From Clostridia bacterium (GTDB lineage: Bacteria > Bacillota > Clostridia > Oscillospirales > Acutalibacteraceae): a DNA stretch of 11,887 nt. Position 1 is the first letter of the stretch, and every line of letters begins with the position of its first letter. Where the stretch lies: NCBI GenBank assembly GCA_017624735.1, contig JAGAMK010000057.1, forward strand, positions 1 to 11,887, in the 5' to 3' direction. A program made the translations under genes and the position numbers. Under the pieces are notes generated by a model. It had not been told where the DNA came from, did not search any database, and saw nothing but the letters and a program-made list of their open reading frames with translations. Positions 6 through 11,887 of this stretch are shown piece by piece.

Positions 6-1277
6 ATGGCAAGACAATCAACAAAAAGAAAAGACAAAGACAGGATCGTTCTCCGTAAAGGGGAATGCCAACGACCGAACGGTAGCTATGACTATCGGTG
101 GACCGATCAATTTGGAAAGAGACACGTTATCTACGGTAAAACGCTTGAAGAACTCCGTGAGAAAGAAAAGGAAGTTGACCGCGATATTTCGGACGGCATA
201 AAGGCTGAGAAACGAAATACGACCATCAACGAGCTTTTTGATCTCTGGTGTCATATCAAGCGAGGGCTTAAGGATAACACCTTCCAAAACTACAAGTATA
301 TGTATAACACCTTTGTTCGACCTAAGTTTGGGAAGCTTAAAATTTCCCAAGTAAAGAAATCGGATGTTAAGCGGTTTTACAACTACTTGGCAGATGAAAG
401 AGGTTTGCAGGCTTCCACCATTGATAGCATCCATACCGTGCTACATCAGGTATTTGATTTAGCGGTTGATGATGGGTACATCAGAAGTAACCCTTCGGAG
501 AGAGTTTTGAAGGAACTCAAGCAAGCCCACTGTTTCCAAACGGAAAAGCGGAAGGCACTGACGGTTGCCGAGCAGGAATTGCTTTTGGACTACCTGAGGA
601 ACACGCCGCAGTATCGTCATTGGTATCCGATATTTGCAGTGATGTTAGGCACCGGTCTTCGCGTTGGGGAAGCAACAGGTCTTCGTTGGTGTGATATCGA
701 TTTGGACGAAGGGCTCATTGATGTGAACCATACCCTCGTTTACTATAGCCACGGACCACAAAAGGGTTGCAGCTTTAATGTGAACACACCAAAGACCAAA
801 GCCGGTGAGCGTGTCGTTCCGATGCTGGGCTTTGTCAAGGAAGCGTTCTTAGAGGAACGGGAAAATCAAAAAGAAACAGGCATAAGCTGTAAGGCGTCTG
901 TTGACGGATATACCGATTTTATTTTCGTCAACAGATACGGTGATACGCAGCACTTAGGAACGCTCAACAAAGCGATCCGCCGCATCATTCGCGATTGCAA
1001 TGATGCGCAGTTTGAAAAAAGCGAAAATCCCGAGGTGCTGTTACCGCATTTCAGTTGCCACACCCTTCGTCATACCTTTACTACGAGGATGTGCGAAGCG
1101 GGTGTTAACATCAAGGTGATTCAAGATGCTTTAGGCCATGCCGATGTTTCGACCACACTCGGAATTTATGCCGATGTCACAAAAGACCTCAGAAAAGATG
1201 AGTTTGCAGGACTGGATGCCTATTTTCAAAAGGGCAAGCTTGCAGCATCTAATTCCGAGGCATCCGTAAGCCAATAA
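6..1277 (+). CDS. int: Tyrosine site-specific recombinase / integrase, Tn916-family-like, with an N-terminal arm-type DNA-binding domain
   Basis: The N-terminus KDRIVLRKGECQRPNGSYDYRWTDQFGKRHVIYGKTLEELREKEKEV resembles the Tn916 Int N-terminal three-stranded-sheet DNA-binding domain. Catalytic signature of the tyrosine recombinase fold: TGLRVGEATGLRW (Arg I), HTLRHTF (His-x-x-Arg II), LGHADVSTTLGIYADV (His/Trp position plus nucleophilic Tyr). Confidence 0.9.
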   Translation: MARQSTKRKDKDRIVLRKGECQRPNGSYDYRWTDQFGKRHVIYGKTLEELREKEKEVDRDISDGIKAEKRNTTINELFDLWCHIKRGLKDNTFQNYKYMYNTFVRPKFGKLKISQVKKSDVKRFYNYLADERGLQASTIDSIHTVLHQVFDLAVDDGYIRSNPSERVLKELKQAHCFQTEKRKALTVAEQELLLDYLRNTPQYRHWYPIFAVMLGTGLRVGEATGLRWCDIDLDEGLIDVNHTLVYYSHGPQKGCSFNVNTPKTKAGERVVPMLGFVKEAFLEERENQKETGISCKASVDGYTDFIFVNRYGDTQHLGTLNKAIRRIIRDCNDAQFEKSENPEVLLPHFSCHTLRHTFTTRMCEAGVNIKVIQDALGHADVSTTLGIYADVTKDLRKDEFAGLDAYFQKGKLAASNSEASVSQ

Positions 1278-2643: not shown

Positions 2644-2670
2644 GGGCGATTTGCGAATCGCCCGTTTCTT
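2644..2670 (+). terminator. Rho-independent terminator after gtrA (GC-rich hairpin of the GGGCGA family)
   Basis: 8-bp stem GGGCGATT (2644-2651) / AATCGCCC (2656-2663), loop TGCG, then GTTTCTT. Confidence 0.7.
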
Positions 2671-2671
2671 G

Positions 2672-2720
2672 GCTCCCCTGAAAGGGGAGCTGTCATTTTT
2701 GCAGAAAATGACTGAGGGGT
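2672..2720 (+). repeat. Bipartite tandem-hairpin intergenic element, copy 1 (hairpin GCTCCCC/GGGGAGC, hairpin GTCATTTT/AAAATGAC, then TGAGGGG)
   Basis: Stems read directly: 2672-2678/2684-2690 and 2692-2699/2705-2712. It shares CTCCCCTG..AAAGGG..AG and the overall layout with 8902-8947. Confidence 0.5.
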
Positions 2721-2750
2721 TTATAATTTTTCAATTTTCTTAAAAAACTC

Positions 2751-2781
2751 TTGACTTTTACCCAAGGTAAAAATGTAAAAT
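2751..2781 (+). promoter_or_regulatory. MerR-type promoter/operator: -35 TTGACT, 19-bp spacer containing a 7-3-7 palindrome, -10 TAAAAT
   Basis: TTGACT 2751-2756, TAAAAT 2776-2781, spacer 2757-2775 = 19 bp. Inverted repeat TTTTACC (2756-2762) / GGTAAAA (2766-2772). RBS AAAGGGGG 2791-2798 precedes GTG 2806. Confidence 0.6.
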
Positions 2782-2805
2782 TGTCATTGTAAAGGGGGCG
2801 TTACT

Positions 2806-4047
2806 GTGAAAATAAAACAGGTTATCAAAGAAACAGGTCTTACTGACAGAGCAATAAGACTTTATATTGAAAATGACCTTGTAAAACCCGAATGTGACGA
2901 AAATTACAATGGCAGAAAAAGTATTGACTTTTCTGAAAATGATGTTTAACAACTAAAAAATATCGCTTTGCTCCGTAAAGCAGATTTTTCAATTCAAGAA
3001 ATCAAAGCCTTGCAAATGGGTGGCGAAACTGCACAACAAACAGTTAAAGAATACATAAACAGAACAAACGAAAAGATACGGTTCAATAGTGAAATAATTG
3101 AAAAAATCGGCACTCTTGCAAACGAAGAAAATATCACAGTTGAAATAATCTGTGAAAGACTTTCAACCAATTTAGCGGACGAAAAAGTACCAACAGAAGA
3201 CATGGAACTCTCACCCAAGGAACAGAAAGAGAAACACGTTTTTACAGCAATTTCTGTAATCGGCATGGTGTTGTCGTGTGGTTCAATGATACTGATACTA
3301 TTGCTGGTTGTGTTTGGATTTGGATATAAATATACCGAGTTCCTTCCTTATGATACAGATTTTGTACGTAAACTGATTTTTTATCCGATACAATACTTTT
3401 TTTTAATACAATTTGTGTTGTGTTTAATAATATATTTGTTCTGTAAAAAGAAGAAAAAAATAGGCAAGAAAAAAGATAGAAAAAAAGCTCTATGCATTTT
3501 TATTACAATTTTATGGGTAATATCATTGCTATTCTCACCATTCGCATTTCTGTTACATCTTATAGCTGGATATTGCTCAATAACATCTAATCCCAATAAC
3601 TATTTAGTGGTGGATGAAGAATATTTGAAATACGAGTGGGAAGAAATTTTTCAAGTTTTTCCATACAAGATGCCTGATTCAGTAAAGCAAATTGTGTATA
3701 GTAAAAACTCTACAACCAAGTATTTTTATGCTTACTCTGATGAGTTTTTAGACGCTTATAGAATGGATATATATGCAGAGTGGCAGCTTGACCATAATAC
3801 GGAATCAATATATGAAAGTGATTATGAAAAAGAAAAGCAAAGAATACTAAGTAAAGATAATATTGTCTGTATAGAGTCTATGGGAGATTGGCAGTGTGTT
3901 CATTTTAAAAATAAAAGAGATGTTACAGAGGCTATGTGCGATTATGAATATCTGTTTTTTGCCTATAATGATGAAACACATACCGTAAGATATATTGCTG
4001 AGTTTGGGTATAAAACAGACCCATATCACTTACAATTAGATTGGTAA
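2806..4047 (+). pseudogene. MerR-family HTH regulator fused to a 3-TM membrane region and an uncharacterised ~150-aa C-terminal domain. The frame is interrupted by one in-frame TAA at 2947-2949.
   Basis: From GTG 2806: VKIKQVIKETGLTDRAIRLYIENDLVKPECDENYNGRKSIDFSENDV*QLKNIALLRKADFSIQEIKAL. This is one continuous MerR HTH-wing-helix motif in the same frame (pos mod 3 = 1) as ORF-track 2968..4047. No SD precedes TTG 2968. Hydrophobic segments: VFTAISVIGMVLSCGSMILILLLVVFGFG, LIFYPIQYFFLIQFVLCLIIYLF, ALCIFITILWVISLLFSPFAFLLHLIAGY. Confidence 0.7.
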
Positions 4048-4049
4048 CT

Positions 4050-4078
4050 AAGCGTGGTCTTTGACCACGCTTTTCTTC
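4050..4078 (+). terminator. Rho-independent terminator after the MerR-TM gene
   Basis: 9-bp stem AGCGTGGTC (4051-4059) / GACCACGCT (4063-4071), loop TTT, then TTTCTTCG. Confidence 0.75.
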
Positions 4079-4122
4079 GTGTCAAAATATTATATAAAAT
4101 TGAATTTATCGGGGAGATTAAA

Positions 4123-4203
4123 TGTAGGGGCGGATGCCCACATCCGCCCGCAATAAGTTTATATATAAACCAAAACGGGACGATGTGGGCATCGTCCCCT
4201 ACA
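4123..4203. repeat. 81-bp composite palindromic (REP/MITE-like) element: two 28-nt inverted arms, each itself a 9-bp GC-rich hairpin, around a 25-nt AT-rich spacer
   Basis: Left arm TGTAGGGGCGGATGCCCACATCCGCCCG (4123-4150). The reverse complement of the right arm (4176-4203) is TGTAGGGGACGATGCCCACATCGTCCCG, a 24/28 match. The 4 differences are two compensated pairs within each local stem. Confidence 0.7.
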
Positions 4204-4395: not shown

Positions 4396-4830
4396 ATGAA
4401 AATCTCAACAAAAGGCAGATATGCGCTTCGCCTTATGACCGATTTGGCAATTCATAAGGATGATGGATATATCTCAATAAAAACCGTGTCACAACGTCAG
4501 GGTATCAGCGAAAAATACCTTGAACAGATTATTAAAATGCTTGCAAAAGAAAACTTTGTTGAAAGCATTCGCGGTGCTCAGGGCGGATACCGACTCACTC
4601 GCGAACCTATCGAATATACAGTAGGCGAAATTCTTCGTGTAACAGAGGGTAGCCTTGCTCCTGTCGCTTGCCTTGCAACGGACGAAAATACTTGTGAGAA
4701 CTGTATGGACTGCGTAACCCTTGAAATTTGGCAATGTGTCCTTGATGCAGTCAATAAGGTTGTCGATTCAATTACTTTGCAATATCTCGTTGACAAACAG
4801 AAAGAAAAGGGGAATTGCGGATGTTGTTAA
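4396..4830 (+). CDS. Rrf2-family transcriptional regulator (IscR/CymR-like), Cys-rich and probably Fe-S binding
   Basis: MKISTKGRYALRLMTDLA...ISEKYLEQIIKMLAKENFVESIRGAQGGYRLTR is the canonical Rrf2 winged-helix domain. Cys cluster: ACLATDENTCENCMDC. C-terminal tail: GNCGCC. Confidence 0.9.
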   Translation: MKISTKGRYALRLMTDLAIHKDDGYISIKTVSQRQGISEKYLEQIIKMLAKENFVESIRGAQGGYRLTREPIEYTVGEILRVTEGSLAPVACLATDENTCENCMDCVTLEIWQCVLDAVNKVVDSITLQYLVDKQKEKGNCGCC

Positions 4831-7172
4831 ACAGATTCGGTAAAGAATTACTTTTCTTTGACGGCGGAATGGGTACAGAATTGCAGAAAAACGGACTCAA
4901 AAAAGGTGAGTTGCCTGAACTTTTAAATATCCATTCACCCGAAATAGTGAAAAAAGTCCATAAATCATATCTCGATGCAGGTTGCGACATTATTACAACT
5001 AACACATTCGGTGCAAATTCCCTCAAATTTAATAATGTAGAAGAAATCATCACAAATGCTGTAAGTATTGTTAAAGATGCCATTTGTGAAAGTGGCAGAA
5101 AAGCTTATACAGCCCTTGATGTTGGTCCAATAGGTAAACTTTTACAACCCTATGGAGATTTGCCATTTGAAGATGCATATAACCTTTTCAAAGAGCAGGT
5201 TGTAGCAGGTGAAAAAGCAGGTGCCGACCTTGTTCTTATCGAAACAATGGGTGATTTGTACGAGATTAAATCAGCAGTTTTGGCTGCAAAAGAGAATACA
5301 GAACTTCCCGTATTCGTTTCAATGATTTTTGACAGTAAGGGTACTCTTTTAACAGGAGCAGATGTTAAAACTGCAGTTGTAACATTGGAGGGACTCGGTG
5401 TTGACGGAATAGGTCTTAACTGCGGACTCGGTCCTGACCAGATGCTTGAACTTTTAAAAGAAATGACAAAATATTCAAGCACACCAATTTTTATTCAACC
5501 AAATGCAGGTCTTCCAGTTTCTATTAACGGCGAAACGTTTTACAATGTGACTCCCGAAGAATTTGCCGAAAAACAACTTAAAATATTAGAAAACGGTGCT
5601 TGTGCTTTGGGCGGTTGCTGTGGAACAAATCCAATGCACATAAAGGCTATGATTGACCTATGCAAGGGTAGAAAAATCAAGGAAATAACCAAGAAGAATT
5701 ATACAGCAGTTTCGTCTTATTCAAAGTCAGTTTTCTTTGAAAACAAGCCAATTATCGTGGGTGAAAGAATTAACCCAACGGGAAAAAAACTCCTTAAAGA
5801 TGCCCTTCGCAACAAGGATATGGAATACATCTTCCGCGAGGGTGTAAGTCAGACGGATTTGGGTGCTGATATTCTTGATGTCAATGTTGGACTTCCCGAA
5901 ATCGATGAATGTGAAATGATGACAAATGCCGTTACGGGACTTCAAAGTATTCTCAATGTGCCTTTACAAATTGACACATCAAATCCCGAAGTAATGGAAA
6001 AAGCACTCCGTTTTTATAATGGTAAGGCTATGGTAAACTCCGTAAACGGCAAAGAGGAGTCAATGAATTCCGTCTTCCCACTTGTGAAAAAATATGGTGG
6101 TGTTGTGGTCTGCTTAACCCTTGACGAAAACGGAATTCCCGAAACGGTTGAAGGCAGAATAGCCATAGCAGAGAAGATTATAAATAGAGCAAAAGAGTTT
6201 GGAATTGAGAAAAAAGACCTTGTTTTTGACCCACTTTGTATGACAATCAGCACGAATAAGGACAGTGCCAAAATCACTCTCAAATGCGTTGAAAAGCTTA
6301 CAAGGGAACTTGGGGTTAAAACAATTTTGGGTGTTTCAAATGTGTCATTCGGTCTTCCTAACCGAGAACTTATCAACTCAACATTTTTTGGTCTTGCTTT
6401 GCAAAAAGGACTTAGTGCAGGTATTATAAACCCCAAAAGCGAAATGATGATGAATACTTATTATTCATTCAATGCGTTAAATGGCCTTGACGAGAATTTT
6501 GAACATTATATTGCAAATGCAACCGATGTTAAAGCCGAAATCAAAACTGATGTTGTTGACCTCAAAACTGCGGTTATAAAAGGTCTTAAAGAAAGAGCAA
6601 AACAAGAAACCGAAAAAGAACTTCTTACGAAAACTCCACTCGAAATAATCGATAATATCATAATTCCTGCGCTTGATGTGGTTGGAGAAGGCTTTGAAAA
6701 TAACAAAATTTTCTTGCCGGGACTTTTAATGAGTGCCGAAACTGCAGGCGTAAGCTTTGAAGTTCTTAAAAAAGAGATGGAGAAAAACGGCTTACAAGGT
6801 GAAAAAAAGGGTAAGATAATTATGGCAACCGTTGAGGGTGACATTCACGATATCGGTAAAAACATTGTTAATGTGTTGCTTGAAAACTATGGTTATGATG
6901 TAATTGACCTTGGTAAAGATGTTAAGCCCGAAACAATAGTTGAAACAGCACTTCGTGAGAACGTGAAATTCGTCGGACTTTCTGCTCTTATGACAACAAC
7001 TGTGCCTTCAATGGAAAAAACAATCAAATTGCTCCGTGAAAAAGACAAGGATATTGCAGTTATGGTTGGTGGTGCAGTTCTGACAGAGGAATATGCAGGG
7101 ATGATAGGTGCAGACTTTTATGCAAAGGATGCAATGACAACTGTAAGAATTGCCGAAAAATTCTTCGCATAA
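4821..7172 (+). CDS. metH: Cobalamin-dependent methionine synthase, short form (Hcy S-methyltransferase + pterin-binding + B12 cap + B12-binding domains, no AdoMet reactivation domain)
   Basis: N-terminal Hcy-binding domain (LLFFDGGMGTEL ... GLNCG ... LGGCCGTNP zinc-Cys motifs). Pterin-binding barrel (IVGERINPTG ... LDVNVG ... VNSVNG ... GVSNVSFGLP). B12 motif EGDIHDIGKNIV ... GLSALMTTT. I prefer ATG 4821 (RBS AAAGGGGAA 4806-4814) over the ORF-track TTG 4815. It overlaps the Rrf2 stop by 10 nt. Confidence 0.9.
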   Translation: MLLNRFGKELLFFDGGMGTELQKNGLKKGELPELLNIHSPEIVKKVHKSYLDAGCDIITTNTFGANSLKFNNVEEIITNAVSIVKDAICESGRKAYTALDVGPIGKLLQPYGDLPFEDAYNLFKEQVVAGEKAGADLVLIETMGDLYEIKSAVLAAKENTELPVFVSMIFDSKGTLLTGADVKTAVVTLEGLGVDGIGLNCGLGPDQMLELLKEMTKYSSTPIFIQPNAGLPVSINGETFYNVTPEEFAEKQLKILENGACALGGCCGTNPMHIKAMIDLCKGRKIKEITKKNYTAVSSYSKSVFFENKPIIVGERINPTGKKLLKDALRNKDMEYIFREGVSQTDLGADILDVNVGLPEIDECEMMTNAVTGLQSILNVPLQIDTSNPEVMEKALRFYNGKAMVNSVNGKEESMNSVFPLVKKYGGVVVCLTLDENGIPETVEGRIAIAEKIINRAKEFGIEKKDLVFDPLCMTISTNKDSAKITLKCVEKLTRELGVKTILGVSNVSFGLPNRELINSTFFGLALQKGLSAGIINPKSEMMMNTYYSFNALNGLDENFEHYIANATDVKAEIKTDVVDLKTAVIKGLKERAKQETEKELLTKTPLEIIDNIIIPALDVVGEGFENNKIFLPGLLMSAETAGVSFEVLKKEMEKNGLQGEKKGKIIMATVEGDIHDIGKNIVNVLLENYGYDVIDLGKDVKPETIVETALRENVKFVGLSALMTTTVPSMEKTIKLLREKDKDIAVMVGGAVLTEEYAGMIGADFYAKDAMTTVRIAEKFFA

Positions 7173-7197
7173 TAGTGCTATTTGTACATTGTTATAA

Positions 7198-7227
7198 TTG
7201 ACAAAATATTACAGTATGTAGTATCAT
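7198..7227 (+). promoter_or_regulatory. Candidate internal sigma-A promoter upstream of nifS
   Basis: -35 TTGACA (7198-7203), 18-bp spacer, -10 TATCAT (7222-7227). No obvious terminator lies between metH and this site. Confidence 0.4.
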
Positions 7228-7297
7228 ATAAATGAATTCATAGTAATTTACTGTGAAATAAGAAAAACTATTGATTTTAATGAAATGAGATGTATAT

Positions 7298-8473
7298 ATG
7301 AAAGTTTACGCAGATAATGCTGCAACAACAAAAATATCAAAAATAGCACTTGATGCTATGATGCCATGTTTCCTTGAAACATACGGAAACCCTTCAAGCT
7401 TACATTCGGTCGGACAAGATGCTTTCCATGCTGTAAGGGATGCTCGTAATACGATTGCCAAATGTATCAACGCAGACCCTAATGATGTTTATTTCTCATC
7501 AGGTGGTAGCGAGAGCGATAACTGGGCAATTAAAGGTGCTGCCTACTTAATGGCTAAAAAAGGCAAGAAGCATATTATCAGTTCAAAGTTTGAACACCAC
7601 GCAGTTCTTCATACACTCAATGTTCTCGAAAAGGAAGGCTTTGAAATTACCTTGCTTGATGTTTATGAAAACGGTCTTGTGCGTGTTGAAGATGTAAAAA
7701 ATGCGATTAAAGAAGATACAGCACTTGTAACAATTATGTTTGCTAATAACGAAATCGGTACAGTTCAGCCAATCCGTGAAATCGGTGCGGTTTGCCGTGA
7801 AAAAGGTGTTCTTTTCCATACAGATGCTGTTCAGGCAGTAGGTCATGTTCCTGTTGACGTTGTGGCAGATAATATTGATATGATGTCTTTCTCAGGTCAC
7901 AAATTCCACGGACCAAAGGGTGTGGGCGGTCTTTACTGCAAAAAGGGTATAAGACTTCCAAACCTTATTGAGGGTGGTGCACAGGAAAGAAATCGTCGTG
8001 CAGGTACTGAAAATGTTCCTGCAATCGTAGGTATGGCAGCAGCACTAAAAGATGCTTGTGACCACATGGAAGAAAACACAAAGAAACTTGTCAAGATGAG
8101 AGAACAACTCATTGAGGGTATTCTCAAAATTGAGCGTAGCCGAATTAACGGTGACCGTGAGCACAGATTACCCGGTAATGTTAGTGCTTGTTTTGAGGGT
8201 GTTGAGGGCGAATCACTTCTCCTTTACCTTGATATTATGGGAATCAGTGCTTCATCAGGTTCAGCTTGTACATCAGGCTCACTTGACCCAAGCCACGTGC
8301 TTCTCTCAATCGGCTTGCCACATGAAATTGCACACGGTTCACTTCGTTTGAGCCTTTGTGAAGATAATACACCTGAAGAAATGGAATATATCATCGAACA
8401 GTTACCACCAATTATTAACAGACTTCGTGATATGTCACCACTCTGGGAAAAGATACAGAAAGAAGGTAAATAA
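7298..8473 (+). CDS. nifS: Cysteine desulfurase, NifS/IscS type (PLP-dependent)
   Basis: YADNAATT start, PLP-lysine motif [17 protein letters not shown], active-site loop [17 protein letters not shown], 391 aa. Confidence 0.92.
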
Positions 8474-8474
8474 A

Positions 8475-8891
8475 ATGGAATATTCAGAAAAAGTAATGGA
8501 ACATTTTGTAAATCCGCATAATGTTGGTAAATTAGAGGATGCTGACGGAATCGGTGAAGTTGGTAATGCAAAATGTGGAGATATTATGAAAATGTATCTC
8601 AAAATTGAGAATGATATTATCACAGACGTTAAATTCAATACTTATGGTTGTGCATCTGCAATCGCAACAAGCTCAATCGCAACTGATATGATTAAAGGTC
8701 AGCCTTTAAGTGAGGCTCTTAAACTCACAAATAAGGCTGTTGTTGAGGCTCTTGACGGACTTCCTGCAGTTAAAATTCACTGTTCAGTTCTTGCAGAACA
8801 AGCAATCAAAGCAGCTGTTAAGGACTACTACGACAAAAATGGTATTGAATATAACAAAGCTGACTTCGAATTCGAAGACCACCATCATTAA
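8475..8891 (+). CDS. nifU: Fe-S cluster assembly scaffold, NifU N-terminal domain / IscU type
   Basis: MEYSEKVMEHFVNPHNVGKL... with the three scaffold Cys motifs GNAKCGD, YGCASAIA, KIHCSVLA. I prefer ATG 8475, 1 nt after the nifS stop with RBS GAAGG at 8462-8466. The ORF-track start 8358 lies inside nifS. Confidence 0.9.
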   Translation: MEYSEKVMEHFVNPHNVGKLEDADGIGEVGNAKCGDIMKMYLKIENDIITDVKFNTYGCASAIATSSIATDMIKGQPLSEALKLTNKAVVEALDGLPAVKIHCSVLAEQAIKAAVKDYYDKNGIEYNKADFEFEDHHH

Positions 8892-11037: not shown

Positions 11038-11469
11038 ATGAAACTTCAAATTGTAATTGACCCTAATCGTGATGAAGAAATTATTATATATGCCCACGAG
11101 AAAACACCATTAGTGTGTGAAATTGAAGAGCTTGTAAAGAGTCATTCTGTTGACTTAATCGGCTACACCGAAAACGAAACAGTAAAGCTTAATTTGAACG
11201 ATATTTACTGCTTTTTCACAGAGGATAATAAGGTCTATGCACTCACTGAAAATGAGAAATATAGGCTTAAATCAAGGCTTTATCAGATAGAAGAAAGTTT
11301 GAGTGATAACTTTGTTAAAATCAATCAGTCCTGTATAGCAAATATCAAAAAAGTTGACCGTTTCAAAGCAACAGTAGGTGGCTCGTTAACGGTAATTTTC
11401 AAAAATGGTCATATTGATTACGTGTCACGAAGAAATCTCAAAAATGTAAAAGAAAGGTTAGGTTTGTAA
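11038..11469 (+). CDS. LytTR-family DNA-binding protein with no phospho-receiver domain
   Basis: The C-terminal ~95 aa match the LytTR domain pattern: IYCFFTEDNKVYALTENEKYRLKSRLYQIEESLSDNFVKINQSCIANIKKVDRF...GSLTVIFKNGHIDYVSRRNLKNVKERLG. The N-terminal ~45 aa are too short for a REC domain. Confidence 0.85.
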   Translation: MKLQIVIDPNRDEEIIIYAHEKTPLVCEIEELVKSHSVDLIGYTENETVKLNLNDIYCFFTEDNKVYALTENEKYRLKSRLYQIEESLSDNFVKINQSCIANIKKVDRFKATVGGSLTVIFKNGHIDYVSRRNLKNVKERLGL

Positions 11470-11470
11470 T

Positions 11471-11887
11471 ATGAATAAATATGTAAAAGAATTTTTCCAC
11501 CGCGGACTTATGTTTAGTGGTTTTGGTCCAATAATTTTAGGCATAATATATTTTATACTCTCAAAAACCGTTGATAATTTCGCATTGAGTGGTGGTGAGG
11601 TGTTAGCTGGAATTGTTTCAACTTATCTCTTGGCATTTGTTCAGGCAGGTGCAACAGTATTTAACCAGATTGAGCATTGGTCAACTGGAAAATCTCTGCT
11701 TTGTCATTTGTCAACAATATATGTTGCATACTCTCTTTGCTATGTGGCAAACACCTGGATTCCATTTGAACCAAAAGTCCTTTGGATTTTCACAATAATT
11801 TTTATGATTGTTTACTTTGTCGTATGGGGAATTGTTTATATTTCAATCAAAGCCACAAGCAAAAACTTCAATGCAAAACTAAAATAA
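11471..11887 (+). CDS. Small 4-TM membrane protein, DUF3021-like, the usual partner of stand-alone LytTR regulators
   Basis: 138 aa with four hydrophobic helices: GLMFSGFGPIILGIIYFILS, VLAGIVSTYLLAFVQAGATVF, LLCHLSTIYVAYSLCYVANTWI, VLWIFTIIFMIVYFVVWGIVYISI. The start is 1 nt after the LytTR stop. The DUF3021 assignment is from memory of the family, not a search. Confidence 0.6.
   Translation: MNKYVKEFFHRGLMFSGFGPIILGIIYFILSKTVDNFALSGGEVLAGIVSTYLLAFVQAGATVFNQIEHWSTGKSLLCHLSTIYVAYSLCYVANTWIPFEPKVLWIFTIIFMIVYFVVWGIVYISIKATSKNFNAKLK

What the first reader, a model, noticed from the sequence alone, without database searches (positions are those of the whole stretch)
2806..4047. Membrane-anchored MerR-family regulator with an unrecognised outward-facing domain, broken by one in-frame TAA
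- The ORF track starts this gene at TTG 2968. Reading the same frame from GTG 2806 (strong RBS AAAGGGGG) gives a complete MerR HTH-wing motif that continues straight through a TAA at 2947-2949 (…FSENDV*QLKNIALLRKADFSIQEIKAL…).
- The gene is therefore a ~413-codon MerR fusion: HTH, a coiled linker, three hydrophobic helices with a poly-Lys cytoplasmic loop (CKKKKKIGKKKDRKK), and a ~150-aa Tyr/Trp/Asp/Glu-rich C-terminal domain I cannot place in any family.
- MerR regulators are classically soluble cytoplasmic effector-binding dimers. A membrane-tethered one-component MerR with a probably extracytoplasmic sensor domain is an unusual, essentially uncharacterised architecture.
- The single nonsense codon is one substitution away from GAA, CAA or AAA. 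It could be recent inactivation, a strain polymorphism acting as an on/off switch, or a sequencing error.
Basis: partly seen in the sequence, partly recalled or inferred. Interest (0 to 1): 0.7.

Follow-up and report, generated by a model that had tools for sequence, protein, structure and literature searches.

The report
Broken membrane-anchored MerR regulator gene
This is one gene for a DNA-binding regulator anchored in the cell membrane with an unknown outward-facing domain, a member of a conserved but unstudied family in gut Clostridia, and in this strain a single real base change has knocked it out.

Summary
Window 2806-4047 is one 413-codon reading frame, interrupted only by TAA at 2947-2949.

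- **Architecture.** Joined, the frame encodes a MerR winged helix-turn-helix that spans the stop, a conserved cytoplasmic linker, three membrane helices with a polybasic inside loop, and a ~155-aa outside domain. That domain has no Pfam, PDB-sequence or Foldseek match.
- **Family.** More than 100 full-length homologues (26-97% identity) exist in 80 Oscillospirales gut genomes. All have a sense codon at position 48, Glu in 94 of 116.
- **The stop codon.** The TAA allele recurs, 100% identical, in independent Logan and ENA assemblies, so it is not an assembly error. dN/dS of 0.06-0.15 shows the knockout is recent. TAA is this window's normal stop codon.
- **New finding.** The gene has a textbook MerR-type promoter: TTGACT, a 19-nt spacer holding the perfect dyad TTTTACC-N3-GGTAAAA, then TAAAAT. 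This is conserved in about 80 of 85 related loci, which implies autoregulation by DNA distortion. Flanking terminators make the gene monocistronic.

Verdict: a recently pseudogenised member of an uncharacterised family of transmembrane MerR regulators. The sensed signal and any wider regulon remain unknown.

The parts
2670..2702 (+). Terminator-like hairpin and T-run that ends the upstream GtrA-like gene and insulates the regulator gene
   Evidence: stem 2670-2692, 10 pairs, followed by a T-run.
2751..2756 (+). -35 hexamer TTGACT
   Evidence: TTGAC is invariant in the 68 loci that passed the dyad filter.
2756..2772 (+). Operator-like perfect inverted repeat TTTTACC-caa-GGTAAAA, lying inside the promoter spacer
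   Evidence: repeat I2, 100% complementary. A10, C11, C12, G16, G17, T18, A20 and A21 are invariant across 68 loci.
2757..2775 (+). 19-nt spacer between -35 and -10, the MerR-type over-long spacing
   Evidence: the spacer is 19 nt in 66 loci and 20 nt in 2, of 68.
2776..2781 (+). -10 hexamer TAAAAT
   Evidence: T26, A27 and T31 are invariant.
2791..2798 (+). Ribosome-binding site AAAGGGGG
   Evidence: AAAGG(G/A)GG is conserved at the same distance from the start in homologous loci.
2806..2946 (+). Codons 1-47: first part of the MerR winged helix-turn-helix. NCBI annotates it as a separate 47-aa 'MerR family transcriptional regulator', MBO5334027.1
2947..2949 (+). Premature stop TAA at codon 48. 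Ancestral state is Glu, GAA or GAG
   Evidence: The same base is present in L005 and L131.
2950..3015 (+). Codons 49-70: the rest of the winged helix-turn-helix
   Evidence: the MerR_1 match covers residues 1-69; helices 44-58 and 63-71.
3016..3234 (+). Codons 71-143: helical cytoplasmic linker, highly conserved (82% mean identity), with a Cys116 that is invariant in the 116-sequence alignment but replaced in the most distant paralogues
   Evidence: Distant paralogues lacking the Cys.
3235..3321 (+). Transmembrane helix 1 (codons ~144-172), oriented in to out
3370..3444 (+). Transmembrane helix 2 (codons ~189-213), oriented out to in
3445..3486 (+). Polybasic cytoplasmic loop KKKKKIGKKKDRKK
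   Evidence: 11 K/R against 1 D/E; the family median net charge of this loop is +9.
3487..3573 (+). Transmembrane helix 3 (codons ~228-256), oriented in to out
3577..4044 (+). Codons 258-413: predicted extracytoplasmic alpha/beta domain, a six-stranded antiparallel sheet plus helices. The family is in neither Pfam nor PDB
   Evidence: pLDDT 90.3, pTM 0.87; no Foldseek match with E<0.02 or TM>0.44.; 279 clusters among 1.84 billion proteins.
4045..4047 (+). Genuine stop codon TAA. Homologues end at the same Trp
4050..4079 (+). Intrinsic-terminator-like hairpin AAGCGTGGTC-ttt-GACCACGCTT followed by a T-run, making the gene monocistronic

Best explanation
**What it is.** Window 2806-4047 is a single gene for a 413-aa membrane-anchored MerR-family one-component regulator. 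The DNA-binding winged helix-turn-helix and a conserved helical linker lie in the cytoplasm. Three membrane helices follow. A ~155-aa domain of a previously undescribed family lies outside the cell.

**How it most likely works.**
- Shown: the gene sits behind its own MerR-type promoter, with -35 TTGACT, a 19-nt spacer and -10 TAAAAT. The spacer holds a perfect 7-3-7 palindrome, and this layout is conserved across the family.
- Inferred: the protein dimerises on this operator and, like MerR, CueR and BmrR, switches the over-spaced promoter on by untwisting the DNA.
- Inferred: the switch is driven through the membrane helices by whatever the outside domain (or the membrane part) senses, so the receptor amplifies its own synthesis.
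- Unknown: further targets elsewhere in the genome are likely but were not found within +/-6 kb.

**In this strain.** A recent GAA-to-TAA substitution at codon 48 cuts the protein inside the DNA-binding domain. The gene is therefore a young pseudogene, a natural knockout. The mutation is real, not an assembly artefact.
For: **One gene with a MerR domain across the stop**
- MerR_1 matches at E=8e-12 over residues 1-69.
- The N-terminal part of the AlphaFold2 model superposes on CadR, PbrR and GlnR, with TM-score 0.56-0.69 normalised to the target.

**Conserved family**
- 491 hits, more than 100 of them full length at 400-428 aa.
- 80 species-level genomes of Ca. Fimenecus, Acutalibacteraceae and Oscillospiraceae from animal guts.
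- Codon 48 is never a stop.
- Mean identity to P0001 falls from 91% in the HTH and 82% in the linker to 50% in the membrane region and 50% in the outside domain. This is the pattern expected of a conserved output with a variable input.

**Topology**
- 111 of 116 members have three hydrophobic segments, and the TM2-TM3 loop has a median net charge of +9.

**Promoter**
- The palindrome is at 2756-2772.
- TTGAC-N4-AC-N5-GT lies about 55 nt upstream of the start in roughly 80 of 85 loci, with only 6 other matches in 867 kb.
- The spacer is 19 nt in 66 of 68 loci.
- Two arrays of tandem paralogues share a single such promoter.
- In a metagenome scan for the promoter pattern, 15 of 44 exact matches lie just upstream of MerR genes. 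These include soluble MerR plus GyrI-like (BmrR-type) regulators.
- Terminators flank the gene on both sides.

**The TAA is real and recent**
- L005 (Logan, 3 runs) and L131 (ENA, 29-kb contig) are 100% identical to the window, including the TAA.
- The 47-aa fragment was read on six contigs (sources NCBI, Logan and ENA).
- Relatives at 95-97% protein identity have GAG, and one at 92% has GAA.
- dN/dS is 0.059 and 0.147, against 0.078 between two intact relatives.
- TAA ends 10 of the 11 other long ORFs in the window and the gene itself.
Against: - No experiment exists on any member. DNA binding, dimerisation, activation and topology are all predictions.
- The helix after the HTH (residues 73-89) is shorter than the classical MerR coiled coil, and the PF09278 match is below threshold at E=0.07. 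The nearest solved relatives by sequence are GlnR and TnrA, which do not act by spacer distortion.
- No second operator was found within +/-6 kb in 80 loci, so no output gene other than the regulator itself is known.
- The independent assemblies carrying the TAA may derive from overlapping read sets or the same animals. L131 is identical over 5.1 kb, so they show reproducibility rather than independent populations.
- The outside location of the C-terminal domain depends on there being exactly three membrane helices.
Confidence: 0.78

Rival explanations
1. The TAA is a sequencing or assembly error, and the organism carries an intact gene.
For: - The source is a metagenome-assembled genome, and the difference from Glu is a single base.
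- dN/dS shows no decay, which is also what an intact gene would show.
Against: - The same base is found in a Logan contig seen in 3 runs, made with a different assembler. It is also found in ENA assemblies with contigs up to 29-39 kb. In total six contigs carry the 47-aa ORF.
- The site is not a homopolymer or a repeat.
Confidence: 0.04
2. The stop is functional: a switch, programmed read-through or recoding event, or a deliberate two-gene split that yields a working regulator or a useful DNA-binding-free membrane protein.
For: - Stand-alone proteins with three membrane helices plus the outside domain, and no MerR part, exist elsewhere. Examples are P0212, P0252 and P0227. The membrane module can therefore live alone.
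- A different contig, L086, is truncated at exactly the same codon.
Against: - The cut falls inside the winged helix-turn-helix, so neither piece can bind DNA.
- No Shine-Dalgarno sequence precedes TTG 2968 or ATG 3013.
- TAA is the standard stop here, and the window holds no tRNA.
- A substitution is not readily reversible.
- No other family member is split at this point.
Confidence: 0.04
3. The family is not a transmembrane signal receptor. One version is a self-induced membrane effector, like TipAL/TipAS, where the autoregulated MerR protein is itself the resistance or binding factor. The other is a tethered factor that acts only after proteolytic release from the membrane.
For: - The only conserved target of the promoter or operator is the gene itself.
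- The membrane-plus-outside module also occurs without a MerR part, among lipoprotein genes.
- No neighbouring gene is conserved across the family.
Against: - The same N-terminal module and operator are fused to several unrelated membrane or outside modules (L099, L106, L127). That is the hallmark of modular sensors.
- In L106 a second identical promoter drives a neighbouring gene that is not a regulator.
- The conservation gradient fits a sensor with a variable input.
- None of these points is decisive.
Confidence: 0.2

Closest known systems
Classical MerR-family activators (MerR, CueR, ZntR, BmrR, TipAL)
   Same: - The N-terminal MerR_1 winged helix-turn-helix is present, and the model superposes on CadR and PbrR.
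- The promoter has a 19-nt spacer with the dyad starting at the last base of the -35 hexamer. From my own knowledge, this is the same geometry as Tn501 PmerT, which has TTGACT, a 19-nt spacer and TAAGGT.
- It controls its own promoter, as TipAL does.
- Soluble BmrR-like proteins (MerR plus GyrI-like) in metagenomes use the very same promoter pattern.
   Different: - There is no cytoplasmic effector-binding domain. Three membrane helices and an outside domain take its place.
- The helix after the HTH is short.
- The gene is co-directional with its promoter and monocistronic, rather than divergent from a target operon.
Transmembrane transcription regulators (ToxR, TcpP, CadC; BcrR of Enterococcus faecalis), as surveyed in PMC10269533
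   Same: - A single polypeptide carries a cytoplasmic DNA-binding domain, membrane helices and an outside domain.
- It is presumed to act on DNA from the membrane.
- MerR and MerR_1 domains make up about 1.5% of the regulators in that census.
   Different: - The DNA-binding domain is MerR-type, not OmpR-type (ToxR, CadC) and not XRE-type (BcrR).
- It has three membrane helices rather than the usual one.
- The implied mechanism, DNA untwisting at an over-spaced promoter, has not been described for any membrane-bound regulator that I could find.
GlnR/TnrA (MerR-family, Bacillus)
   Same: These are the best solved-structure matches by sequence: 7tea at E=6e-6, plus 4r4e and 4r22. NCBIfam also gives a sub-threshold TnrA-like hit, 24.9 bits against a cut-off of 140. 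Like this protein, they have a short region after the HTH.
   Different: GlnR and TnrA are small soluble proteins controlled by glutamine synthetase. From my own knowledge, their operators are TGTNA-N7-TNACA sites and are not embedded in 19-nt spacers.
RsgI-SigI systems of cellulolytic Clostridia
   Same: This is an analogy only. Both occur in gut or fibre-degrading Firmicutes, both have a conserved cytoplasmic output module joined to variable outside modules, and both have several paralogues per genome.
   Different: RsgI is an anti-sigma factor, not a DNA-binding protein. There is no sequence or fold relation. Carbohydrate sensing by this family is pure speculation.

Membership tests
MerR family transcriptional regulators | N-terminal winged helix-turn-helix matching the MerR profiles | tested here: met
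   PF13411 matches at E=8e-12 and 45.5 bits, above the 21.6-bit cut-off, over residues 1-69 across the stop. Foldseek aligns the N-terminal part to CadR, PbrR and GlnR with TMt 0.56-0.69.
MerR family transcriptional regulators | Operator dyad inside an over-long (19-20 bp) spacer of a sigma-70-type promoter | tested here: met
   perfect 7-3-7 dyad at 2756-2772; 19-nt spacer in 66 of 68 homologous loci, with invariant dyad positions. Actual binding was not tested.
MerR family transcriptional regulators | Long antiparallel coiled-coil dimerisation helix after the HTH | tested here: inconclusive
   helix 73-89, only 17 residues, followed by helices 95-106 and 112-119; the PF09278 match is below threshold at E=0.074.
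MerR family transcriptional regulators | C-terminal cytoplasmic effector-binding domain (metal site, GyrI-like, TipAS and others) | tested here: not met
   no such domain is present. Residues 144-413 are three membrane helices plus an outside domain.
Transmembrane transcription regulators (one-component, membrane-bound) | DNA-binding domain and at least one transmembrane helix in one polypeptide | tested here: met
   This holds for the reconstructed 413-aa protein and for all intact homologues. It does not hold for the products of the broken gene in this strain.
Transmembrane transcription regulators (one-component, membrane-bound) | Extracytoplasmic sensor domain, with signal-dependent transcription | not testable with these tools
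   The outside location follows from a cytoplasmic N-terminus, three membrane helices and the positive-inside rule. Signal dependence is unknown.
Pseudogene (recent nonsense allele) | An in-frame stop inside a conserved domain where all orthologues have a sense codon, present in the reads rather than introduced by an assembler | tested here: met
   0 of 116 homologues have a stop; the ancestral codon is GAG or GAA; identical TAA in Logan and ENA assemblies. I could not inspect read pile-ups directly.
ToxR/CadC-like receptors | OmpR-type winged-helix DNA-binding domain (Trans_reg_C) | tested here: not met
   there is no Trans_reg_C hit. The DNA-binding domain is MerR_1.

The most novel reading that the evidence does not exclude
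The family is a new class of transmembrane receptor in which an extracellular or membrane signal is carried through three membrane helices to a MerR-type dimer. That dimer activates an over-spaced (19-nt) promoter by DNA distortion while still anchored in the membrane. It would be the first MerR switch driven from outside the cell. The system looks modular: a conserved 'TGLTDRAIRLYI' output module and operator are combined with interchangeable outside domains, one of which is a fold with no solved relative. The window's strain would then be a natural knockout of one such receptor.
Probability: 0.45. Interest if true: 0.7.

Novelty: new variant of a known kind. Interest (0 to 1): 0.5.

Why it matters
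MerR regulators are the textbook case of activation by DNA distortion, and every studied example senses a cytoplasmic ligand. Membrane-bound one-component regulators such as ToxR, CadC and BcrR are the textbook case of transcription controlled from the membrane, and none of them uses the MerR mechanism.

This family joins the two. It comes with a sharply defined, phylogenetically conserved operator and promoter, so the idea can be tested directly with reporter fusions, footprinting and a spacer-length mutant.

The family is common in uncultured Oscillospirales of ruminant and other animal guts, where signal transduction is largely unexplored. It also carries an outside domain family of about 280 clusters that has no annotation and no solved structural relative.

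For genome annotation, the locus shows how one nonsense codon turns a recognisable regulator into two entries: a 47-aa 'MerR family regulator' and a 359-aa 'hypothetical protein'.

Tried and rejected
- **Placing the outside domain.** None of the searches gave a usable match, so the weak Mog1/PsbP, Tsi3 and BlaR1 resemblances were rejected.
  - Pfam at E<=10 found nothing, and NCBIfam found nothing.
  - A PDB sequence search with the domain found nothing, and with the full-length family profile found only the MerR HTH.
  - Foldseek of a high-confidence model gave a best E of 0.05 with TM<=0.37 against PDB, and a best E of 0.02 with TM<=0.44 against BFVD.
- **Conserved partner genes.** Clustering of ORFs within 3 kb in 78 loci found only clade-level synteny: GtrA upstream in 20 loci, and Rrf2 and MetH downstream in 14-15. 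I rejected these as functional partners because terminators lie between them and the gene.
- **A second operator nearby.** The strict pattern gave only chance-like extra hits, and the relaxed pattern gave 79 hits with no promoter context. No local regulon was found.
- **Alternative genetic code or suppression.** Rejected, because TAA ends 10 of 11 other ORFs and the window has no tRNA.
- **RNA elements.** Rfam found no match in the window.
- **Literature on a characterised membrane-bound MerR.** Four searches found none. Only the census counts turned up.
- **A conserved internal start like TipAS.** Met70 is not conserved; P0001 has Lys there. Rejected.
- **Other truncated database entries as further nonsense alleles.** P0041 and P0042 sit on mosaic or rearranged short contigs, L086 and L087, not on nonsense alleles.
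Full report
**1. The observation**

Reading the window from GTG 2806, preceded by AAAGGGGG at 2791-2798, gives 413 codons ending at TAA 4045-4047. There is one in-frame TAA at 2947-2949. The mechanical ORF list splits this into a 47-aa ORF (2806-2949) and a 359-aa ORF starting at TTG 2968.

With the stop replaced by Glu, Pfam MerR_1 (PF13411) matches residues 1-69 at E=8e-12 and 45.5 bits, against a cut-off of 21.6. The match runs through the stop. The 47-aa piece alone barely passes at 24.3 bits, and the 359-aa piece has no MerR match. NCBIfam gives only sub-threshold matches to CueR, CadR, TnrA and NmlR over residues 1-105.

Hydropathy finds three hydrophobic segments at about 144-172, 189-213 and 228-257. 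The loop between the second and third, KKKKKIGKKKDRKK, has 11 basic residues and 1 acidic residue.

**2. It is one gene, and a member of a conserved family**

A search of 5.8 billion proteins returned 491 hits. More than 100 are full length at 400-428 aa and 50-97% identical over 100% of the query, and nearly all carry PF13411. The closest relatives, P0001 and P0002 at 97% identity, are uninterrupted 413-aa proteins with Glu at position 48.

- In a 116-sequence alignment, position 48 is Glu in 94, Val or Ala in 14, and Lys, Met or Gln in 6. It is never a stop.
- At the DNA level the four contigs that encode P0001 have GAG where the window has TAA. A lineage 92% identical in protein has GAA. 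One G-to-T transversion from GAA therefore explains the stop.
- A scan of one genome per species found 80 loci with full-length matches down to 26% identity. All are metagenome-assembled genomes of Ca. Fimenecus, Acutalibacteraceae, Oscillospiraceae, Faecousia or Ruminococcus, from goat, sheep, yak, deer, cattle and other guts.
- NCBI annotates intact members as 'MerR family transcriptional regulator'. It annotates the window's two pieces as MBO5334027.1, a 47-aa 'MerR family transcriptional regulator', and MBO5334028.1, a 359-aa 'hypothetical protein' J6B37_07960.

**3. The stop codon is real and recent**

- A Logan contig from SRR12529167, seen in three runs, is 100% identical to window 2670-4129, including the TAA.
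- The exact 47-aa product is on record from NCBI, Logan and ENA. Six contigs carrying it were read, and the longest on record is 39 kb.
- One of these, L131 on a 29-kb contig, is identical to the window over 5,144 bases. The matching 343-aa downstream product, P0269, is on five ENA contigs of up to 95 kb.

Different assemblers therefore reproduce the base, so it is not an assembly artefact. Because the flanks are identical, these contigs represent one clone and possibly overlapping samples. Only a read pile-up would give an allele frequency.

Nei-Gojobori dN/dS between the window gene and its intact relatives is 0.059 (against L001) and 0.147 (against L006). The value between the two intact genes is 0.078. 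The reading frame shows no sign of decay, so the mutation is young.

TAA terminates 10 of the 11 other long ORFs in the window, and the gene itself. The window has no tRNA. There is no repeat or homopolymer at the site. Recoding, suppression and a reversible switch therefore have no support.

The cut lies between the recognition helices and the rest of the winged helix, so neither product can bind DNA. Neither TTG 2968 nor ATG 3013 has a Shine-Dalgarno sequence.

**4. Anatomy of the protein**

AlphaFold2 with the 116-sequence alignment gives mean pLDDT 81. The model shows:
- a winged helix-turn-helix (helices 3-10, 14-22, 44-58 and 63-71, with a two-strand wing);
- helices at 73-89, 95-106 and 112-119;
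- three long membrane helices at 137-171, 186-215 and 225-253;
- a C-terminal alpha/beta domain.

Foldseek aligns the N-terminal part with CadR, PbrR and GlnR, with TM-score 0.56-0.69 normalised to the target.

The DNA-binding domain must be cytoplasmic, there are three membrane helices, and the polybasic loop follows the positive-inside rule. The C-terminal domain is therefore predicted to be outside. Across the family, 111 of 116 members show three hydrophobic segments, and the TM2-TM3 loop has a median net charge of +9.

Mean identity to P0001 falls along the protein: 91% in the helix-turn-helix, 82% in the cytoplasmic linker, 50% in the membrane region and 50% in the outside domain. The linker contains a Cys116 that is invariant in the 116-sequence alignment, although the most distant paralogues lack it.

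**5. The outside domain**

Modelled alone, the domain is very confident, with pLDDT 90.3 and pTM 0.87. It is a six-stranded antiparallel sheet with two main helices.

- Foldseek finds nothing significant in PDB (best E=0.05, TM<=0.37) or in BFVD (best E=0.02, TM<=0.44).
- Sequence searches of Pfam and PDB are empty.
- A profile of the domain searched against 1.84 billion representative proteins finds only 279 clusters at E<=0.001. Most are ~400-aa proteins of the same architecture.
- A minority at 245-280 aa, such as P0212, P0252 and P0227, have the three membrane helices and the domain but no MerR part. They sit among small lipoprotein or secreted-protein genes with no MerR gene beside them.

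The conserved residues are mostly aromatic and acidic and lie on neighbouring strands (motifs TTKYYY, AEW, GDW, FFAYND, TVRY). That would suit a ligand-binding face, but this is inference only.

**6. New: a conserved MerR-type promoter**

Upstream of the gene lie TTGACT (2751-2756), a 19-nt spacer and TAAAAT (2776-2781). The spacer holds the perfect inverted repeat TTTTACC-caa-GGTAAAA at 2756-2772. The built-in promoter scan allows only 16-18-nt spacers and so misses it.

- The same arrangement lies about 55 nt upstream of the start codon in roughly 80 of 85 related loci, down to 26% protein identity. The pattern TTGAC-N4-AC-N5-GT has only 6 other matches in 867 kb.
- Among the 68 loci that pass a dyad filter, the spacer is 19 nt in 66 and 20 nt in 2. 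The ACC/GGT cores and the T, A and T of the -10 are invariant.
- From established knowledge, an over-long 19-20-bp spacer holding the operator dyad is the hallmark of promoters activated by MerR-family proteins through DNA untwisting. The dyad here begins at the last base of the -35 hexamer, as in Tn501 PmerT.
- Terminator-like hairpins lie on both sides, at 2670-2692 and 4050-4072, so the gene is a monocistronic, self-controlled unit.
- Two loci carry tandem paralogues behind one such promoter: three in L032 and two in L080. Their N-terminal modules are nearly identical and their outside domains diverge.
- One locus, L008, has a plain 17-nt-spacer promoter without the dyad.

**7. Wider context of the operator**

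A scan of JGI metagenomes for TTGACNTTTACCNNNGGTAAAA gave 44 matches on 43 contigs.

- 15 lie directly upstream of MerR genes, and one more is cut off by the contig end but has the family's promoter sequence. The rest lack a MerR gene downstream, and most lack a -10 element.
- Twelve of the 15 start with the family's N-terminal module. Five of these are complete members of this family (L088, L095, L103, L122, L128), and four are partial or truncated (L092, L093, L107, L114).
- Three carry the same 'MKIKEV..TGLTDRAIRLYI' module fused to other membrane or outside parts. L099 is 489 aa with a Cys-rich outside region. L106 is 320 aa with one membrane helix. L127 is 323 aa and is multi-pass only.
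- The other three are soluble MerR plus GyrI-like (BmrR-type) regulators: L104, L112 and L129.
- In L106 a second, identical promoter precedes the next gene, which encodes a signal-peptide protein. This is the only hint of a target other than the regulator itself.

Within +/-6 kb of the 80 genome loci no second operator was found. No neighbouring gene is conserved beyond clade-level synteny; GtrA upstream and Rrf2 and MetH downstream occur in only 14-20 loci.

**8. How it most likely works**

- Shown: the domain architecture, the family conservation, the conserved promoter and operator geometry, and the reality of the nonsense allele.
- Inferred: the intact protein dimerises on the dyad and activates its own over-spaced promoter in the MerR manner. 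The conformational switch comes from the membrane or outside part, making it a transmembrane one-component receptor with positive feedback.
- Unknown: the signal, and the rest of the regulon.

Serious alternatives for the family are a self-induced membrane effector in the manner of TipAL/TipAS, or a tethered factor released by proteolysis. In this strain, whatever the function, it has been lost.

**9. Comparison with what is known**

The protein passes the MerR membership tests for the DNA-binding domain and the promoter type. It fails the test for a cytoplasmic effector domain, and the test for the coiled-coil helix is inconclusive.

It meets the definition of a transmembrane transcription regulator. 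A 2023 census (PMC10269533) listed 386 MerR and 350 MerR_1 domains among such proteins, about 1.5%, so the general class has been noticed. Four literature searches found no characterised membrane-bound MerR.

I rate it a new variant of a known kind. The pseudogene itself is ordinary. The family, its operator and its unplaced outside domain are the interesting part.

Noticed in passing
L086 1200-1280 (ENA ERZ27303017 k141_460177), compared with window 2947: In a different species (79% nucleotide identity), homology to the gene family starts exactly at the first base of codon 48, and the junction also reads TAA-CAA. Everything upstream is unrelated: a YfjL_N-like gene on the opposite strand. A rearrangement breakpoint therefore coincides to the base with the window's nonsense substitution. 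Whether this is coincidence, a hot spot or a chimera is unresolved.
   Followed up: partly
L032 4702-8577; L080 4614-7206: Three tandem paralogues (L032) and two (L080) of the membrane MerR gene sit behind one MerR-type promoter. Their N-terminal modules are nearly identical and their membrane and outside parts diverge. This suggests heterodimers or several sensors feeding one operator.
   Followed up: partly
L106 3065-4413 (JAEEGL015125832.1): A related one-pass membrane MerR gene is followed by a second, identical TTGACTTTTACC-N3-GGTAAAA promoter. That promoter precedes a gene for a signal-peptide protein, which is cut off by the contig end and has no Pfam hit. It is the only candidate non-self target seen.
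   Followed up: partly
L104 7765, L112 6918, L129 762: Soluble MerR plus GyrI-like (BmrR-type) regulators of 257-265 aa carry the same -35, dyad and 19-nt-spacer promoter as the membrane family. The operator type is therefore shared between soluble and membrane-bound MerR proteins.
   Followed up: partly
L132 3001-3819; L133 2102-2896 (P0252, P0212): Stand-alone proteins with three membrane helices, a polybasic loop and the same outside domain, but no MerR part, lie among small lipoprotein or secreted-protein genes. One neighbour, L133 3665-4231, has a sequence pattern reminiscent of the domain.
   Followed up: partly
L008 340-420: One family member (79% identity) has lost the dyad promoter. 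It has a canonical TTGACA, 17-nt spacer and TAGAAT promoter instead.
   Followed up: no
window 3151-3153 (codon 116): A single cysteine in the cytoplasmic linker (…EIICE(K/R)L…) is invariant in the 116-sequence alignment but replaced in the most distant paralogues such as L080. It could be a cytoplasmic redox or metal input.
   Followed up: no
window 11038-11887: A 143-aa LytTR DNA-binding protein is followed immediately by a DUF3021 membrane protein, which runs off the window end. This is a pair of the LytTR-plus-membrane-partner type, a second small membrane-linked regulatory unit in the same window.
   Followed up: no
window 6-1277: A Tn916-type tyrosine integrase (Integrase_DNA plus Phage_integrase) lies at the left edge, upstream of CinA and GtrA. 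It is also present in the identical ENA contig L131 but is absent from the context of the 97%-identical strain L001. It may mark the end of an integrated element.
   Followed up: no
window 4127-4199: Two GC-rich hairpins in an AT-rich intergenic region have loops that are reverse complements of each other: GGGCGGATG-CCCA-CATCCGCCC and GGGACGATG-TGGG-CATCGTCCC. Similar GC-rich hairpins lie at 2644-2692. They look like REP-type elements or bidirectional terminators.
   Followed up: no
window 4396-8891: Downstream lies an Rrf2-family regulator gene overlapping the start of a three-module MetH-like gene (homocysteine S-methyltransferase, pterin-binding and B12-binding domains, no activation domain). 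NifS-like and NifU-like genes follow. This is housekeeping synteny shared only with the closer clade.
   Followed up: no
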